Shown here: in pieces, positions 11,773-63,900 of the stretch
Position numbering within the stretch: position 1 is the first letter of the stretch
Layout of the letters: each line of letters opens with the position of its first letter
From: Shigella phage JK32
Direction: 5' to 3' (one strand)
Length of the DNA: 64,000 nt
Sequence record: MK962753.1
The notes under the pieces: generated by a model
The model's input: only the letters and a program-made list of their open reading frames with translations
Told to the model about the DNA's origin: nothing
The model's database searches: none
Position numbers and translations under genes: made by a program

Positions 11773-12360
11773 CTAAATATCTAACCAAGACAAATCAGAT
11801 CCGCCCAAGATTTTTTCAACGGCGGATCTATTTTCTTGATGATACAAGTTAAAGCATGGTATCCCATGTCTACGAGCAACATAAACAGCAATTCGAGTCC
11901 CGCCAGAAACAATCCCATTAACTTCTTTCGCCCAAAATAACACACAATCTACAGGATCATCAAGTGTCTCACCTAAGACTTGAGCAACATTTCTAGAAAA
12001 CAGATTTTGCATGTATAACGGTATAGAACGAGGATTATCATAAACGTGTTCTAATTCATCCATCGCCAGATTTTTTTGTTCTAAGGTTTGCCATGCAATC
12101 ACATCATGACCGTTATGCTTGTGGTCATAAAACTTCCAATTTGGAATGAAAATTTTTCTATAATCTGGATCGTAATACTTCATGAAAGCATTGTCCATAC
12201 CGTAAGCCCCTCCAGAATGCGCTACAACGCGATTTTCTGACAATACCCTCCCAATGGTACTAGCCATTATCAAAATGTCGCTAGGCGCTTTTCTAGAGCC
12301 GATTAAAGCACATCTACGAAGCGGTTTTACTCCAACTAGATCTTGTAACTGGTCAAACAT
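11773..12360 (-). CDS. SLOG-superfamily (DprA/Smf/YpsA-like Rossmann) protein
   Basis: 195 aa; motif LIGSRKAPSD...AHSGGAYGMDNA resembles the DprA/SLOG GSR...SGGA.G.D signature; occupies the position of rnlB in T4. Confidence 0.55.
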   Translation of the reverse strand: MFDQLQDLVGVKPLRRCALIGSRKAPSDILIMASTIGRVLSENRVVAHSGGAYGMDNAFMKYYDPDYRKIFIPNWKFYDHKHNGHDVIAWQTLEQKNLAMDELEHVYDNPRSIPLYMQNLFSRNVAQVLGETLDDPVDCVLFWAKEVNGIVSGGTRIAVYVARRHGIPCFNLYHQENRSAVEKILGGSDLSWLDI

Positions 12361-12512
12361 AATATTTCCTCCATAGAAAGCAATATCATACTACAAGTTA
12401 ATAACAAATACAAGTATCCGCGTAGCGGAAGCGAGCACAGCGAGCAATAAAACACTTCCAGTAATTGATTAATAAATGTTCGAAACAAATTTTTATTATT
12501 CTATAAGATAAG

Positions 12513-12538
12513 TCTTCGTTTTGATCATAATTTAATCA
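12513..12538. repeat. 26-nt direct repeat, copy 1 (TCTTCGTTTTGATCATAATTTAATCA)
   Basis: Identical 26-mer recurs at 12662..12687 inside a 410-bp ORF-free AT-rich intergenic region. Confidence 0.8.
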
Positions 12539-12661
12539 TACATGTAAAAACTACACAAAAGGATATCGCTTCGCGAACTCCTACGGAGTATAACATTTGT
12601 GTTACAATATGTATTGATTAATAATTAATCAAAGATACATTTTCTATGTTCTAAAGATCTT

Positions 12662-12687
12662 TCTTCGTTTTGATCATAATTTAATCA
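12662..12687. repeat. 26-nt direct repeat, copy 2
   Basis: Identical to 12513..12538; both copies followed about 20 nt later by ACATGTAAA. Confidence 0.8.
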
Positions 12688-12740
12688 AACAGTATTAATA
12701 TTGTGCACATGTAAACTAAAATTATGTTAATAACAGATAC

Positions 12741-12765
12741 AAAAAAGCCGCCCCGAAGGACGGCT
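12741..12765 (-). terminator. Rho-independent terminator (minus strand)
   Basis: AGCCGCCCCGAAGGACGGCT hairpin with A6 run on + strand (U-run on minus transcript), 9 nt beyond stop of 12774..13211. Confidence 0.65.
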
Positions 12766-12773
12766 AATGTTAA

Positions 12774-13211
12774 TTATTTGTTGATAACGATCTGATTTCG
12801 GCGAATGGTAACATTACTCTTAGAGATGATCAGATCATCCGGCACTACGTTAGTTTTGTATGGCTGGAAGCGAACAAGCATCTGATTGCGTTTAGACCCT
12901 TCCTTAATCTTGATTTCCATCTGGATATTGTTGCCTACGTGAGCAACCGCAATTTCACCTTTATTCTCATAGACCCACTTGCTGGTAACGTCTCCAGCAA
13001 AAGCCTTAATAACTTGCAATGCTTCGTCGTATGCGGTAGAGCTGTGAACTTTCAGAAGGCCAGCCGTCGCCAGACGTGAGCAAGTGATCGCCGGAGACTG
13101 CCAAACATCAACATTAATTTGCTCAATCAGAGTAACACCGCCCTGATCAACTGCTTTGAATGCTTCGAACATTGCTTTTTTCATTGCTACGTGGTTTTTA
13201 CGGAATTTCAT
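12774..13211 (-). CDS. Hypothetical protein (145 aa)
   Basis: Clean ORF bounded by terminator; no recognised domain. Confidence 0.6.
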   Translation of the reverse strand: MKFRKNHVAMKKAMFEAFKAVDQGGVTLIEQINVDVWQSPAITCSRLATAGLLKVHSSTAYDEALQVIKAFAGDVTSKWVYENKGEIAVAHVGNNIQMEIKIKEGSKRNQMLVRFQPYKTNVVPDDLIISKSNVTIRRNQIVINK

Positions 13212-13257
13212 AATTAGTCACCTCTATTGATTAGTTATTCAGAATATTAATTACAAA

Positions 13258-13533
13258 TTAGGACATTGCCCGTTTGAATGCGTCCATTATAACAGTGTTA
13301 TTTGGCTTGTCAACACGTTTTTGAACTTTATTTTTAAATTTTTTGTTGATGTGGTGTTTACGATAAACAACCTTTTCACGGTTGGCGTAAGCCTCTCGTG
13401 CATCTTTTACCATCAACCATGCCTTAGCCGCATCTTGTCCGCTGATCCCGCCAATCTTTTTAGCAATATCAACAAAATTAAGACCGTGGTCTTCGCGTAG
13501 CATGTAAACCATTAACGCTGTTTTCTTGTCCAT
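13258..13533 (-). CDS. Hypothetical protein with helix-turn-helix-like segment
   Basis: Start chosen at internal ATG overlapping upstream stop (TGATG coupling); ORF track gives a longer form 13258..13641; HTH-like FVDIAKKIGGISGQDAAKAW. Confidence 0.45.
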   Translation of the reverse strand: MDKKTALMVYMLREDHGLNFVDIAKKIGGISGQDAAKAWLMVKDAREAYANREKVVYRKHHINKKFKNKVQKRVDKPNNTVIMDAFKRAMS

Positions 13534-13730: not shown

Positions 13731-13888
13731 ACTTCACCTCATACATTCATAAACACAACAACGAATAGGACAGTAACAGTTATTAAAGCCATTTTCAACC
13801 CCATATTCATAATATTTTCCTCATAAGGTAACGCCCTGTTGATGTGTGCCATTATAAGCCACTAAATCACACTGTCAAGCACTAAAAA

Positions 13889-13914
13889 CAAAAAAGCCAC
13901 CCCGAAGGATGGCT
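13889..13914 (-). terminator. Rho-independent terminator (minus strand)
   Basis: AGCCACCCCGAAGGATGGCT hairpin preceded on + strand by an A-run; 12 nt beyond hoc stop. Confidence 0.65.
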
Positions 13915-60957: not shown

Positions 60958-63900
60958 ATGGCAGATTTTTCTCAACATTTCAAGGCCACATTTGGCTTTG
61001 ACGCTGGTAATGAAAAGGTCGTCAATGTAGCATTGGCTGATAAGAATGTCAACACCGATGCGGTCAACGTTGAATTTTTCAATTACCATAATGGTATTAC
61101 TCAGTATGACACAACTCGCGGTTATGATCAATACGGAACTACAATCTATCAAAACCGTCCGTATTATGCAAAAGAAGATATCACAAAGCCAGCAGGTGAT
61201 TTTGACCCGACTAAATGGCAAGCACTGCGCACGGACCCACGTTGGGATTATATTGCAGCAACTTCCGGTGATACTCCTTTAAAGTCTGGTGATTATATCG
61301 CAGCAGATGGTCAATTTGCAAACTTGACTTTCTCTATGCCAAATAAACCAGCCGAGGGAGACACTATAACAGTAAAAGATATCGGTGGCAAGTGTGGTGT
61401 TAACGAATTATCGTTCTTGAGTTCAGGACATGAGTTTTACCATAACGGTAATGTGTATAACCGAAAATGGTATTGCACTACCCCGTATGCAATGAACTAT
61501 TTCATCTTTGTTCGTAATCGTTGGCATGTTTATCAGACAGGAACAGAGCCACGCGGTGTGTACGCACAACCAGCGATTGATGCTATTCAAATGCAGAATG
61601 GTGATCAGGTATTTCGTCGTAGTTCATTGGGTAATATTACCTTAGTGCTTCCTAAGTTTGCCAACAATGGCGACATGATCCAGACTACAGATCTTGACGG
61701 GTTAACCGCAACCAACCACGTTACGGTTAAAGTTCATGAGCACGCAGAAGAACAATCAATTGGCACGTTCGGTCTAAAAGAGATTATCGGTAAGCGTAGC
61801 GGTCATGGTGTATTCATCTTTGATAAGCCTGAAAACTTATGGCGTGTGTGGGATGGTGATCAGTCTGTTCGTCTTAAACCGATCATCGATGACACTCGCT
61901 TGCAACCTAATAGTTATGTTGCTGTATTTGGTGATCATGATGTTACTCTGACGCTACCGACCAATGTCGAGCCGGGTGATCGTATTCAAGTTTCTATGCA
62001 GTATATGCACGGAAACCAGAATTGCCGTATTATCACCGCCGCAGAGGATACAAAAATCCTTATGCAGAAAAACATGGTTCAGTTTCCTAAGCGTAGCGAG
62101 TACCCATTCAACGGGACCGAGACGTGGAAGGAAGTGTCTGAATTGTCGTTCAATGCAGCTAGTGATTATGTTCCTTATCTGGAGTTCTCTTATTCAGAAG
62201 GTGATGATGGTAAGAAACATTGGTTGGTAGCACATGCTCACCCAATCGTAGAACGGGTAGATCCGACTCGTAAAGCGCGTGTTGGTGTAATTGCACTGGC
62301 TACCCAGAATGAAACGAATAAAAACCATGAAGAGAATCCTAGCGACGAAGTTGCAGTAACGCCAAAAATGCTGGCTAATAAAACAGCCAACGAAACTCGA
62401 CGCGGTATTGCTCGTATTGCTACTCAGGCGGAAACGCATCAAGATACTGGTTCCAGCTTCCTGGATGATGTTATCGTTACACCTAAAAAGTTAAATGACT
62501 GTGTTGCTACCGAAGCCCGTCGTGGTGTGATGGAAATTGCAACCCAGCACGAAACCAATGAAGGTTTAGATGATACCCGCGCTATTACTCCTAAGAAATT
62601 AGAAGAACGTCGCGCATCCGAGGATCTCGCTGGTATTGCTGAAATTGTTCAGGCTGGCGGTAGTGCTGCCGATCGACGTGGCGAAGCTGGTACAGGAATC
62701 TATAACATCAATGACCATGCTAAAATTGTTACGCCACAAAACATCAACGAAGTCAAGGCGACCGAAACTTCCCGTGGTGTTGGCTATCTGGCAACTGACG
62801 CGGAAGTGCAAGGTGCTACAGAATCAACCCCGCAAGATGCTTTACTAATCACGACTCGCACGCTAACGAAACGTACTGCTACCGAATCGCGTACTGGTAT
62901 CGCTGAAATTGCAACTCAGGAAGAAACAAACTTAGGTCAAAGTGATAACCATATCATCACGCCTAAAAAGCTGCATACTCGCCGCGCAACGGAAACTTTA
63001 CACGGTTTAGCAGAAATTGCAACTCAGCCGGAATTTGACGCAGGTCGTGACGACGCTCGCATTTCTACCCCGTTGAAGATTAAAACCTTCTTTGAGAATG
63101 CACAGCGTTTGAAAGTAGATCCGACTCAGGGGCTTAACCTTACTGGTGATTTGTGGCAAGGTATCATGATCAGCGGTCTGGATGCAACCGAAGACACAAA
63201 AGGTGTCGCGAAAGTTGCAACTACTCAGCTTACGGACGCTGGTCAAGATGATACTACAATCATTACTCCTAAAAAGCTGCAAGGCAAAAAGGCCACCGAA
63301 GGTAAAGAAGGTATTATCCGAGTTGGTACTCAAGCCGAAACCGTGGCTGGTGCACTGGCTAATGTAGCAATTTCTCCGAAGAACTTCAAATATGTTGTTC
63401 AGACAGAGGATACATGGAAAGCAACCGAAGCGCGTCGTGGTTTCTTGAAAGTTGCTACTCAGGAAAACTGTTTTGTTGGTGATAATCTACAAGGTTCTAC
63501 TCAAGAGCTAGGAAACTACCAGCATGACGGAATTGCTGTTACCCCGAAAGGATTAAACTACGCACTTGCTAATTTCTTGCCTAAGATGGCAACCGCTCAG
63601 AATAGTTTGAAATTGGGTAACGTAGAGGCCGCTAAATGGGCGCGTAGAGACATTGACCAGACCATTGAGAGCAATTACACGTTTAATAAAAACGTTAACG
63701 TGAAGGGCGATTTAGAGTGCTTAAAATCTGGTTCCTTTGAAACGCTGTTTGTGACTAAGAACTCAACCGACGATCCGAGTAATGGTCATCTGGTGTTGGG
63801 TGAGCGTGGAGTTGATGGTCACACCGGAATTACTCTGCATGGCACAACCGCATCGGAAGGCATGGAAAACTCATGGTCTATTATCGTTGGTGGTACTGGA

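What the first reader, a model, noticed from the sequence alone, without database searches (positions are those of the whole stretch)
12361..12773. ORF-free 410-bp intergenic region with a perfect 26-nt direct repeat
Between the SLOG-like gene and the next minus-strand gene there is an AT-rich region with no ORF of 60 aa or more, containing TCTTCGTTTTGATCATAATTTAATCA twice (12513 and 12662), each followed by ACATGTAAA. It could hold a small RNA, a replication or packaging signal, or regulatory binding sites; T4-type phages use such regions for origins and middle promoters.
Basis: seen in the sequence. Interest (0 to 1): 0.4.

Follow-up and report, generated by a model that had tools for sequence, protein, structure and literature searches.

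The report
Tandem copies of an intergenic cassette
The 26-base repeat is real and marks two side-by-side copies of a roughly 150-base non-coding cassette that occurs four times in this group of T4-like E. coli phages and once in some E. coli prophages; it looks like an undescribed promoter-plus-hairpin control element or replication-start signal, but its activity has not been tested.

Summary
The window is an RB49/Phi1/JSE-type coliphage (Krischvirus). Bases 12361-12773 are a 413-bp ORF-free gap, the most AT-rich stretch in 64 kb, with the exact 26-mer at 12513 and 12662.

The 26-mer is the best-kept part of a ~149-bp tandem duplication. Each unit has an AT-rich core of about 75-84 bp that is an imperfect palindrome, then small GC hairpins of the GCGNAGC/CCGNAGG type.

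The unit is dispersed: Krischvirus genomes carry four copies (this pair, genes 35-36, and beside an HNH endonuclease gene). 53 of 5,426 E. coli genomes carry a ~80%-identical copy in a prophage, inside a 1.3-kb gene-free, iteron-bearing gap. A divergent relative keeps the tandem layout, but the cores evolve in concert within each genome.

No tRNA, Rfam family, conserved small ORF, rnlB remnant, MotA-type middle promoter, stereotyped early promoter or late promoter is present.

Best reading (about 0.4): a promoter/mini-hairpin cassette resembling, but distinct from, the published PeSL cassettes. The 26-mer supplies the upstream, -35 and spacer part of a weak sigma-70-type promoter on the + strand.

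Main rival (about 0.25): a MotA-independent, T4-style replication origin. Strand-specific RNA-seq and origin assays would decide between them.

The parts
12746..12765 (-). Rho-independent terminator of ORF165: AGCCGTCCTTCGGGGCGGCT followed by TTTTTT. It has a C(UUCG)G loop and a G.U pair only on the minus strand.
   Evidence: scan; annotated in GEC-3S, G2248 and Makalu records; predicted for RB49 at 97821-97838 (PMC1524935 supplement); 85% identical in L021 with a compensatory G-C to A-T change.
12611..12694 (.). Unit 2 core: an AT-rich imperfect palindrome that includes 26-mer copy 2 and the 19-bp palindrome at 12614-12632.
   Evidence: nhmmer E=4e-17. 81.6% identical to the prophage element over 76 nt, and 90% over the 41 nt at 12649-12689.
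12662..12687 (+). 26-mer copy 2. Read on the + strand it holds the invariant TCTTCGTTT, the -35-like TTGATC (12670-12675) and most of the 17-nt spacer; the -10-like TATTAA follows at 12693-12698.
12566..12588 (-). Two mini-hairpins of unit 2: CTCC-GTA-GGAG (12588..12578) and TCGC-GAA-GCGA (12576..12566, contains GCGAAGC), followed by a T-rich run to about 12546.
   Evidence: Sequence. Compensatory variants at the same place in other copies: ATCC-GAA-GGAT (L021) and GTGCC-TAC-GGCAC (copies 3 and 4). Motif enrichment.
12462..12545 (.). Unit 1 core: an AT-rich imperfect palindrome (arms 12466-12496 and 12508-12538) that includes 26-mer copy 1.
   Evidence: inverted repeat I1: 31-nt arms, 71% complementary; nhmmer E=6e-15.
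12513..12538 (+). 26-mer copy 1. The -35-like TTGATC is at 12521-12526; only a poor -10 follows (TAAAAA at 12545-12550, 18-nt spacer).
12417..12445 (-). Unit 1 tail: the direct repeat GCTCGC-TGT-GCTCGC (12445..12431) and the mini-hairpin TCCGC-TAC-GCGGA (12429..12417), followed by a T-rich tail. The + strand here reads GCGTAGC.
   Evidence: Terminator-like. The counterpart in L021, TCGGC-GTA-GCCGA, keeps the stem through a C-G to G-C swap and is also flagged terminator-like.
12385..12413 (-). Candidate weak sigma-70 promoter of ORF164: TTGTAT (12413..12408), 17 nt, TATGAT (12390..12385).
   Evidence: Read from the sequence. Conserved in L021 as TTGTTT-17-TATGAT although the spacer differs. This segment is 72% identical against 48-58% for the cores. 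It falls below the threshold of the simple scan.
12358..12372 (-). Shine-Dalgarno GGAGG (12372..12368) and the ATG of ORF164 (12360..12358).
   Evidence: ribosome-binding site annotated in the Makalu record.
12587..12595 (-). Possible extended -10 element TGtTATACT overlapping the first mini-hairpin. Weak candidate only.
   Evidence: Read from the sequence. L021 has TATAAT at the matching place. No -35 element; untested.

Best explanation
The gap holds two tandem copies of a portable non-coding cassette of about 110-150 bp. Each cassette has an AT-rich, imperfectly palindromic core followed by one or two GC mini-hairpins and a T-rich run. I read it as a promoter/stem-loop control cassette. It works like the PeSL cassettes described for RB49 and Phi1 but is a different sequence family. 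On the + strand, the 26-mer supplies the conserved upstream block (TCTTCGTTT), the -35-like TTGATC and the spacer of a weak sigma-70-type promoter. On the gene (minus) strand, the mini-hairpins with T-runs act as extra attenuators behind the strong ORF165 terminator. ORF164 is then started from its own weak promoter, TTGTAT-17-TATGAT. In this gap the cassette promoters point away from ORF164 toward the ORF165 terminator, so they would make only short non-coding or antisense transcripts. Shown here: the anatomy, the copy number, the polarity, the homology with prophages, and the concerted evolution of the cores. Inferred: promoter activity, attenuation and any transcript.
For: (1) The cassette is dispersed, not a local oddity. 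The shared motif AAACGAAGA-N3-ATCTT-N0-1-TAGAA hits four places in each of the two Krischvirus contigs scanned, 164.7 kb and 150.3 kb (about 64.2, 101.56, 101.71 and 151.67 kb on the former). All 58 GenBank relatives keep the pair, and the prophage element finds 3-4 places per record.
(2) The layout and polarity are the same at every phage site. Between genes 35 and 36 the order is terminator, core, GTGCC-TAC-GGCAC, TCGC-GAA-GCGA, T-run, late promoter TATAAATA, ATG. At copy 4 the order is core, two hairpins, then TTGACA-17-TAGATT in front of an HNH_3/AP2 gene.
(3) On the 26-mer strand every copy has a -35-like hexamer, a 16-18 nt spacer and a -10-like hexamer that always starts with TA: TTGATC-17-TATTAA, TTGATC-18-TAAAAA, TTGCTT-16-TATAAT, TTGATT-16-TATAAT, TTGGTT-16-TATAAA, TTGGTT-17-TATATT, TTGATG-16/17-TATGAA. 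In two settings this promoter faces a real gene: the 84-aa gene at copy 4 (GAGGA and ATG about 45 nt downstream) and the 155-aa prophage gene.
(4) Hairpin stems differ between copies but always pair. The gap holds 4 of the window's 35 GCGNAGC/CCGNAGG motifs and is the only place with 3 or more (0.04 expected from its composition).
(5) ORF164 has a strong terminator upstream and no stereotyped early or late promoter, so some signal in the gap is needed.
(6) Core identity is 86-87% between the two units of one genome but 69-75% between genomes, whereas the tails match across genomes (77-80%). PeSL-type repeats are reported to recombine (PMC2839356).
Against: The promoter matches are weak (7-10 of 12). 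The T at -7 is missing in several copies, unit 1 has almost no -10, and about a third of the prophage variants read CATGAA. In AT-rich DNA such matches are common: one search found 6 promoter-like sites against 7.2 expected. The best-conserved bases lie upstream of the -35 rather than in the -10. In three of the four phage copies the putative promoter has no gene to serve. The same core also reads as a poorer promoter on the other strand (TGATCA-17/18-TAGAAT/C). The hairpins are short (4-5 bp) and follow an already strong terminator. Overall the gap diverges from L021 at about the synonymous rate of the neighbouring genes (65% identity against 59-65% at fourfold sites), so selection on the cores is not demonstrated by conservation. 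No transcript data exist for any Krischvirus.
Confidence: 0.4

Rival explanations
1. The units are MotA-independent, T4-style replication origins. A host-type promoter in the core fires into the AT-rich segment, the transcript forms an R-loop that primes leading-strand synthesis, and the stable DNA mini-hairpins on the displaced strand mark or help lagging-strand priming. The tandem pair would be one origin, and copies 3 and 4 two more.
For: T4 minimal origins are about 100 bp and consist of a promoter plus an AT-rich downstream unwinding element. oriE uses an early promoter, T4 origins share no sequence motif, and oriE, oriF and oriG lie near switches of transcription strand (PMC3016281). This gap is the most AT-rich 385 nt in 64 kb and lies about 600 bp from the convergent gp24/ORF164 junction; copy 4 sits exactly at a divergent junction. 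GCGNAGC/CCGNAGG mini-hairpins recur at phage G4, St-1 and alpha3 priming sites and at RSF1010 ssiA (PMC13037366) and are uniquely clustered here. The prophage homolog lies in a 1.3-kb gene-free gap with CCTACACT iterons, which looks like an origin. From my own memory of the T4 map, and only loosely, the three phage loci fall within a few kb of the regions that hold T4 oriE, oriF and oriG.
Against: There is no functional evidence, and T4 origins have no sequence signature to test against. Which strand carries the promoter is unresolved. At genes 35-36 the + strand promoter runs straight into a terminator hairpin rather than an unwinding element. The prophage gap has no match among 72,556 plasmids, and none of its neighbouring proteins has a recognisable replication domain. 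The positional analogy with T4 rests on memory and on distances of several kb.
Confidence: 0.25
2. Each unit is a small-RNA gene, or an RNA-level element, on the gene-sense (minus) strand. It would have a weak promoter (TGATCA-17/18-TAGAAT or TAGAAC), a body of about 45-60 nt, then mini-hairpins and a U-run as terminator.
For: The unit period (149-170 nt) and its order (conserved block, variable body, compensated hairpins, T-run) look gene-like. The hairpin plus T-run is flagged terminator-like on this strand in the window, in L021 and in the prophage. Loops on this strand are mostly GNA. Folding z-scores are mildly negative (-1.98).
Against: No Rfam match in the phage or the prophage. The -35 is poor, unit 2 lacks the T at -7, and L021 does not keep the spacing. 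Mismatches between the palindrome arms are mostly transversions (64) against 12 and 16 wobble-type changes, with no strand bias, unlike the terminator control. The opposite strand folds equally well (z = -2.37). Copy 4 and the prophage lack a U-run after the hairpins. The most conserved part would be the promoter rather than the RNA body.
Confidence: 0.12
3. The repeats have no function of their own. They are a selfish or neutral intergenic repeat, like a MITE or an empty cassette, that sits where insertions are tolerated and is kept uniform by gene conversion in a highly recombinogenic phage.
For: The cores diverge between lineages almost to the shuffled baseline (48-58% against 46%) while staying 86-87% alike within a genome. 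Copies are dispersed, always intergenic, and bounded by inverted arms. Rapid recombination between short repeats is documented for these phages (PMC2839356).
Against: Direct repeats 149 bp apart should be lost easily by recombination, yet all 58 GenBank genomes and the divergent L021 keep both copies at the same position. The 41-nt block is 90% identical between a lytic phage and unrelated prophages with no flanking homology. No presence/absence polymorphism or target-site duplication was seen. Hairpins are preserved by compensatory change.
Confidence: 0.13
4. The cores are binding sites for a sequence-specific protein from the host, the phage or the prophage. That could be an operator for a regulator, or a decoy that titrates a prophage or host factor. 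The two copies are kept identical because both must fit the same protein.
For: TTGATTAA is strongly clustered (4 of 5 copies in the window). The arms covary between copies: TGATTA/TAATCA, TGGTTA/TAACCA and AACCGAAAC/GTTTCGGTT, and T.A to C.A to C.G at 12629/12673. Conservation is sequence-specific and asymmetric: the 26-mer arm is far better kept than its partner arm. There is no wobble bias, so the constraint acts on DNA. The site is shared with prophages of the same host.
Against: No candidate protein was found. The prophage neighbours have no homolog in about 130 kb of Krischvirus DNA and no DNA-binding domain was detected. I could match no known E. coli regulator consensus; my informal comparisons with Fur, FNR, IHF and DnaA boxes failed. 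The presence of a unit upstream of a late tail-fibre gene argues against a regulator specific to ORF164.
Confidence: 0.08
5. The gap is a decayed remnant of a gene, such as RNA ligase 2, which occupies this position in other T4-like genera.
For: In Slopekvirus-, Jiaodavirus-, Bragavirus- and Karamvirus-type phages the DprA-like gene directly follows rnlB. Krischvirus has ORF165 plus this gap in that position.
Against: tblastn of four Rnl2 proteins and the neighbouring proteins against 12300-13300 gives only noise (best E = 0.46). The gap's internal tandem and palindromic order is not that of a dead gene. The 23-aa ORF at 12525-12596 is frame-shifted in L021.
Confidence: 0.02

Closest known systems
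PeSL (promoter-early stem-loop) cassettes of RB49 and Phi1 (Arbiol et al. 2010, PMC2839356; Comeau et al. 2014, PMC4122927)
   Same: Same phage group. Small composite intergenic cassettes with an AT-rich stretch, sigma-70-type promoter signals and an adjacent stem-loop. Repeated around the genome. Sequence exchange between copies: here, concerted evolution of the two cores.
   Different: The promoters of published PeSLs are identical to the sigma-70 consensus. In this window they are stereotyped as AAAAAGTTG-TTGACA-17-(T/C)ATAAT-ACACCCATCGAAAC, often with a GGGGATC...GATCCCC stem. The units here score only 7-10 of 12, share none of that sequence, carry GNA-triloop mini-hairpins of 4-5 bp instead of polyG/polyC stems, have an internal palindrome of about 75 bp, number four rather than about 50, mostly point away from the neighbouring genes, and have a prophage homolog. 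The paper names nothing at these sites.
T4 replication origins oriF (uvsY), oriG (34) and oriE (Kreuzer and Brister 2010, PMC3016281)
   Same: Modules of about 100 bp combining a promoter with an AT-rich region. Several per genome. Located in or near late-gene regions and switches of transcription strand.
   Different: oriF and oriG use MotA-dependent middle promoters, which RB49-type phages lack, and no MotA box is present here. T4 origins share no common sequence, whereas these units are one family. oriE has 12-nt iterons, and none are here. No functional data exist for these units.
Mini-hairpin DNA (GCGNAGC/CCGNAGG) at priming and initiation sites: G4, St-1 and alpha3 complementary-strand origins, RSF1010 ssiA, N4 early promoters (PMC13037366)
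   Same: Exact motif matches: GCGAAGC, CCGTAGG and GCGTAGC, plus CCGAAGG in L021 and the prophage. They are clustered in a non-coding, AT-rich region.
   Different: Those systems act on single-stranded DNA of ssDNA phages or plasmids, or with a virion RNA polymerase. Nothing shows that these hairpins extrude or are recognised in a T4-like phage, and they would serve equally well as RNA hairpins.
Small palindromic intergenic repeats of enterobacteria (ERIC/IRU, MITE-like elements); comparison from my own general knowledge
   Same: Imperfect palindromes of about 75-130 bp. Strictly intergenic, multi-copy, and with a fixed orientation relative to transcription.
   Different: No sequence similarity. 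Only four copies. No target-site duplications or presence/absence polymorphism seen. AT-rich. Found in a lytic phage and in prophages rather than in the host core genome.

Membership tests
PeSL (Arbiol et al. 2010) | [quoted passage not shown] | tested here: not met
   Units score 7-10 of 12. The window's true early promoters score 10-12 of 12 with a stereotyped context, and none lies in 12361-12773. Nolan et al. predicted no early promoter there.
PeSL (Arbiol et al. 2010) | Adjacent stable stem-loop, generally GGGG...CCCC, acting as terminator or attenuator | tested here: inconclusive
   Compensated hairpins are present next to each core, but they are 4-5 bp GNA-triloop mini-hairpins, not polyG/polyC stems. 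Two are flagged terminator-like. Their activity is untested.
PeSL (Arbiol et al. 2010) | [quoted passage not shown] | tested here: inconclusive
   The AT-rich criterion is met. An ORF in the promoter's direction exists only at copy 4 and in the prophage, not for the two units of this gap.
PeSL (Arbiol et al. 2010) | Repeated in the genome and mediating recombination (indels, mini-circles) | tested here: inconclusive
   Four copies per genome. Concerted evolution of the cores implies exchange between copies. No indel polymorphism in 58 genomes. Mini-circles cannot be tested here.
T4 MotA-dependent middle promoter | MotA box (a/t)(a/t)(a/t)TGCTT(t/c)A, 11-13 nt upstream of TAnnnT, plus a motA gene in the phage | tested here: not met
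   The pattern TGCTTYA-N11-13-TANNNT gives 2 matches in the window against 1.6 expected, none in the gap. No motA ortholog or middle-promoter consensus in RB49 (PMC1524935).
T4 late promoter | TATAAATA upstream of the gene | tested here: not met
   Eight TATAAATA sites in the window, none in 12361-12773.
T4-type R-loop origin (oriF/oriG) | Promoter followed by an AT-rich unwinding element of about 50 bp | tested here: inconclusive
   Promoter-like signals exist on both strands and the region is the most AT-rich in the window, but the promoter strand and its activity are unknown.
T4-type R-loop origin (oriF/oriG) | Drives autonomous plasmid replication on infection; a persistent R-loop forms | not testable with these tools
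   Needs an origin-plasmid assay, 2D gels or nascent-strand mapping.
Iteron-type origin (plasmid, lambda or T4 oriE style) | Cluster of at least three evenly spaced short direct repeats (about 12-22 bp) | tested here: not met
   Only two long repeats 149 bp apart in the phage gap. Iterons (CCTACACT) occur only in the prophage gap.
Known non-coding RNA families and tRNA | Match to an Rfam covariance model at its gathering score, or a tRNA fold | tested here: not met
   Best Rfam hit 23.9 bits against a gathering score of 95, lying on the terminator. Nothing in L021 or the prophage gap. ARAGORN finds 0 genes in 64 kb.
Structured RNA formed by the core palindrome | Stem kept by compensatory and G.U-tolerant changes with a strand bias | tested here: not met
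   Arm mismatches: 64 transversions, 12 wobble-type on the + strand and 16 on the - strand. The two arms are conserved unequally. Some covariation exists but fits a DNA palindrome equally well.
Mini-hairpin DNA motif (PMC13037366) | GCGNAGC or CCGNAGG heptamer | tested here: met
   GCGTAGC starting at 12420 (+), GCGAAGC at 12574 (-), CCGTAGG at 12586 (-), CCGAAGG at 12753 (+). That is 4 of the 35 in the window, with 0.04 expected from the gap's composition.

The most novel reading that the evidence does not exclude
The unit is a new, sequence-defined class of replication origin for T4-like phages that lack MotA. It would combine a host-type promoter, an AT-rich unwinding segment and DNA mini-hairpin priming signals, be reused at three loci (one as a tandem pair), and be shared with the origin-like region of a family of E. 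coli prophages. That would make this the first T4-type origin recognisable from sequence.
Probability: 0.22. Interest if true: 0.75.

Novelty: new variant of a known kind. Interest (0 to 1): 0.5.

Why it matters
How RB49-type phages organise transcription after the early phase, and where they start replication, is unknown: they lack MotA and middle promoters, and T4 origins have no sequence signature that can be carried over. A four-copy non-coding cassette with fixed polarity offers a concrete handle on both questions. It is the most AT-rich spot in 64 kb, it carries the only cluster of mini-hairpin DNA motifs there, and its 41-nt core is 90% identical to a sequence in unrelated prophages of the same host. 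That sharing also points to exchange or common constraint on non-coding DNA between lytic and temperate phages. If it proves to be only a second kind of promoter/terminator cassette, it still extends the PeSL idea and explains an unannotated gap present in all 58 sequenced relatives.

Tried and rejected
- **tRNA and known RNA families:** none found.
- **Small proteins:** the 23-aa ORF at 12525-12596 is frame-shifted in L021, and the 32-50-aa ORFs annotated in a few records overlap the hairpin region and are not credible.
- **rnlB or other pseudogene remnant:** only noise.
- **Stereotyped early promoter, late promoter, MotA middle promoter:** all absent.
- **GATC or restriction-site purge to explain the paired GATC loss in G2248 and PHB13:** GATC gains and losses balance in the flanks.
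- **RNA stem formed by the palindrome arms:** no wobble bias.
- **Overall purifying selection on the gap:** I first read the aligner's "72% mean column identity" as constraint. Recomputed identity is 65%, equal to fourfold-degenerate sites, and the cores sit near the shuffled baseline, so I withdrew that claim.
- **Six MAG hits and three viral contigs (L026-L031, L056, L058, L067):** chance matches with no flanking similarity.
- **Function of the prophage neighbours:** Pfam, PHROGs and one large protein search gave only "hypothetical protein".
- **A protein shared between the prophage neighbourhood and Krischvirus:** none.
- **Match of the prophage gap to plasmids:** none.
- **Third copy inside the window:** I expected it from JSE coordinates, but it lies beyond the window's end.
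- **Known E. coli regulator sites:** informal comparison with Fur, FNR, IHF, DnaA and TyrR consensus sites found no convincing match. This was done by eye, not with a tool.
Full report
**Identity of the window and check of the observation**

Megablast places the window in the genus Krischvirus, the RB49/Phi1/JSE-type "pseudo-T-even" coliphages. 58 GenBank records match at 95-99%.

The gap 12361-12773 lies between the DprA-like/SLOG gene ORF164 (11773-12360, minus; PHROG 768, weak Pfam DNA_processg_A hit) and ORF165 (12774-13211, minus). ORF165 is an ORFan found only in these 58 phages.

The gap holds no ORF of 60 aa or more. The 26-mer occurs exactly twice, at 12513 and 12662, with none expected by chance. 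ACATGTAAA follows both copies, but 1 nt after the first and 19 nt after the second. The gap is the most AT-rich 385-nt stretch of the whole window, at 27.5% GC against a median of 40.3%.

**What is ruled out**

- No tRNA in the window, and no Rfam family. The only weak hits sit on the ORF165 terminator.
- The strong minus-strand terminator at 12765..12746 belongs to ORF165. It is already annotated in some records and in Nolan et al.'s RB49 supplement.
- The early promoter those authors predicted (Pe:98401) is the 12/12 consensus at 13313..13286, which drives ORF165. They predicted no early or late promoter in this gap.
- My own scan agrees. The window's true early promoters are stereotyped (AAAAAGTTG-TTGACA-17-(T/C)ATAAT-ACACCCATCGAAAC), and neither these nor TATAAATA late promoters occur in the gap.
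- RB49 has no motA and no middle-promoter consensus (PMC1524935), and the MotA-box pattern is absent here.
- In four other T4-like genera the DprA-like gene directly follows RNA ligase 2, but the gap retains no trace of rnlB.

**Anatomy**

The 26-mer is the core of a ~149-bp tandem duplication (79 nt at 73% identity). Read on the gene-sense (minus) strand, the order is:

1. ORF165 terminator
2. unit 2 core (12694..12611)
3. mini-hairpins CTCC-GTA-GGAG and TCGC-GAA-GCGA, then a T-run
4. unit 1 core (12545..12462)
5. GCTCGC-TGT-GCTCGC, the mini-hairpin TCCGC-TAC-GCGGA, then a T-run
6. TTGTAT-17-TATGAT
7. GGAGG and the ATG of ORF164

Each core is an imperfect palindrome whose better-conserved arm is the 26-mer. 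The half-site TTGATTAA is strongly clustered, with 4 of its 5 copies in the window falling here. The hairpins are canonical "mini-hairpin DNA" heptamers (GCGAAGC, CCGTAGG, GCGTAGC). The gap contains 4 of the window's 35 such motifs and is the only place with three or more.

**Comparative evidence within the phage group**

All 58 relatives keep the whole gap. In a 15-genome alignment it varies about as much as its neighbouring genes (12.7% variable columns against 8.7-9.4%).

The only clearly divergent relative, metagenomic contig L021 (ORF165 92% identical at the protein level), also has a tandem repeat in the same place: 104 nt at 89% identity, period 170, each unit with inverted arms.

The unit tails correspond across genomes (77-80% identity), and their hairpins are kept through compensatory changes: CTCC/GGAG to ATCC/GGAT, and TCCGC/GCGGA to TCGGC/GCCGA. 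The ORF164-proximal promoter is kept as TTGTTT-17-TATGAT.

The cores behave in the opposite way. They are 86-87% alike within a genome but 69-75% between genomes, and only 48-58% identical in the global alignment, where the shuffled baseline is 46%.

So the tandem layout is ancestral, and the cores evolve in concert. I withdrew an earlier impression of overall constraint: the gap as a whole is 65% identical, the same as fourfold-degenerate sites of the flanking genes (59-65%).

**An unexpected homolog in prophages**

A sensitive search of 5,426 complete E. coli genomes finds a ~75-nt sequence about 80% identical to both cores in 53 chromosomes. Twenty-odd IMG/VR prophage contigs of about 35 kb carry it almost unchanged.

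Homology is confined to the element (41 nt at 90%, including the 26-mer) plus the 17-nt palindrome GATTAATAATTAATCAA about 950 bp away. No flanking or protein similarity exists.

In the prophage the element sits in a 1.3-kb gene-free gap that also carries CCTACACT iterons and a series of the same kind of mini-hairpins. It lies about 150 nt upstream of a 155-aa gene of unknown function. The neighbours are uninformative, and the gap matches no plasmid.

**The unit is dispersed in the phage genome**

Searching with the prophage gap revealed further copies in Krischvirus. A motif shared by all copies hits four places per full-length contig: about 64.2 kb, 101.56 and 101.71 kb (this pair) and 151.67 kb.

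- **Copy 3** lies between tail-fibre genes 35 and 36: terminator, core, GTGCC-TAC-GGCAC, TCGC-GAA-GCGA, T-run, late promoter TATAAATA, ATG.
- **Copy 4** lies in a divergent gap: core, two hairpins, then TTGACA-17-TAGATT in front of an HNH_3/AP2 endonuclease-like gene.

Polarity relative to the downstream gene is the same in all four copies. The unit is therefore not specific to ORF164.

**Which strand, and RNA or DNA?**

Both strands of the gap fold only mildly better than shuffles (z = -2.0 and -2.4).

The arms covary between copies: TGATTA/TAATCA, TGGTTA/TAACCA and AACCGAAAC/GTTTCGGTT, and T.A to C.A to C.G at 12629/12673.

Against an RNA stem, mismatches between the arms are mostly transversions (64, against 12 and 16 wobble-type changes) with no strand bias. 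The terminator control pairs cleanly only on the minus strand. The 26-mer arm is also far better conserved than its partner. The selected feature is therefore the sequence of the 26-41-nt block at the DNA level, not a stem.

On the 26-mer strand every copy shows TTGNTN, a spacer of 16-18 nt, and a hexamer beginning with TA. At copy 4 and in the prophage this arrangement faces a real gene.

The matches are weak, however. Unit 1 nearly lacks a -10, and the other strand offers a poorer alternative (TGATCA-17/18-TAGAAT or TAGAAC).

**Interpretation**

The best-supported reading is a promoter/mini-hairpin cassette. It is functionally akin to the PeSL cassettes of these phages (PMC2839356) but is not a member of that family: the promoter is not consensus, the stems are different, the sequence is different, there are four copies, and a prophage homolog exists. 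In this gap it would add attenuators behind the ORF165 terminator and fire short transcripts away from ORF164, which has its own conserved weak promoter. I give this about 0.4.

The main rival, at about 0.25, is a MotA-independent origin of the T4 type. T4 minimal origins are about 100 bp, made of a promoter plus an AT-rich unwinding element. oriE uses an early promoter, and origins sit near strand switches (PMC3016281). Mini-hairpin DNA motifs recur at phage priming sites (PMC13037366). The gap is the AT-richest spot in the window, and the prophage copy lies in an iteron-bearing region.

The remaining weight is split as follows: small-RNA genes on the gene strand 0.12, a neutral or selfish repeat homogenised by gene conversion 0.13, a protein-binding site or decoy 0.08, and a gene remnant 0.02.

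No transcriptome exists for this phage group, so the decisive data are experimental.

**Novelty**

None of the 58 records annotates anything here except the terminator. The PeSL papers and Nolan et al. do not describe it, and Rfam has no model for it. I rate it a new variant of a known kind (regulatory intergenic cassette), of moderate interest. It would rank higher if the origin reading proves right.

Noticed in passing
Outside the window: JSE EU863408.1 152382-152465 (L055 2501-2584); L062 about 3934; L065 about 8632: Third copy of the unit, in the 202-bp gap between tail-fibre genes 35 and 36. It is placed between a terminator and the gene 36 late promoter TATAAATA.
   Followed up: yes
Outside the window: L060 (reverse strand, about 10465) and L066; about 64.2 kb on the 164.7-kb Krischvirus contig: Fourth copy, in a divergent gap between an 84-aa gene and an HNH_3/AP2 endonuclease-like gene, which is followed by a gp19-like gene and dNMP kinase. 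A link between the unit and a free-standing homing-endonuclease gene is possible but was not examined.
   Followed up: partly
L024 3489-3615 (E. coli C325 prophage, NZ_CP124819.1 about 851.7 kb): Block of at least six CCTACACT-type iterons inside a 1.3-kb gene-free gap, followed by a run of GC mini-hairpins (CGGCGTAGCCG, GCGCGTAGCGC, CGCCTACGGCG, TCCCTTCGGGA, CAACCTTCGGTTG). It looks like an origin or another protein-loading site. All neighbouring proteins are uncharacterised.
   Followed up: partly
L021 2270-2440: The divergent relative has about 170 extra nt between the TATGAT promoter and the ORF164 start, including a long hairpin (GATACCCTAAAA...TTTTAGAGGGTAT). This could be a structured leader. 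No Rfam match.
   Followed up: partly
window 12739-12765 and 13888-13914: The ORF165 terminator has a 93%-identical sister copy downstream of hoc. Similar AAAAAAGCC...GGCT terminators recur at about 36341 and 56866.
   Followed up: no
window 33218, 35108, 38868, 40024 (minus strand): Textbook PeSLs: TTGACA and TATAAT/TATACT with a GGGGATC...GATCCCC stem-loop filling the spacer, preceded by AAAAAGTTG and followed by ACACACATACCGAAAC. They were useful as the internal standard for what a PeSL looks like in this genome.
   Followed up: partly
window 11773-13211 compared with L015-L018: In four other T4-like genera the DprA-like gene is immediately downstream of RNA ligase 2. In Krischvirus rnlB is absent from this locus (and from the 64-kb window), replaced by the ORFan ORF165 with its own consensus promoter and terminator, plus this gap.
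   Followed up: yes
window 12524, 12673, 12677 (G2248 = L003, PHB13 = L010): Two phages lost the GATC in both 26-mer copies at the same repeat position, but to different bases (A>T and A>G). The unit 2 change restores pairing with 12629 (C.G), while the unit 1 change breaks a pair. It is unexplained; it may be conversion from copies 3 or 4, which read TTTTGGTT.
   Followed up: partly
window about 62400-63200: Coding-looking sequence with a recurring motif (…GAGTTGCAATTTC…ATACC…) in an ORF that appears to run off the end of the window. This is probably a repeat-domain structural protein. Gene content here differs from JSE at the same offset.
   Followed up: no
L009 (UPWr_E1) 913-1629; L004 1531-1629; L011 1467-1628: Some GenBank records extend ORF164 into the gap or-53-aa ORFs across the hairpin region. 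These are probably over-annotations.
   Followed up: partly
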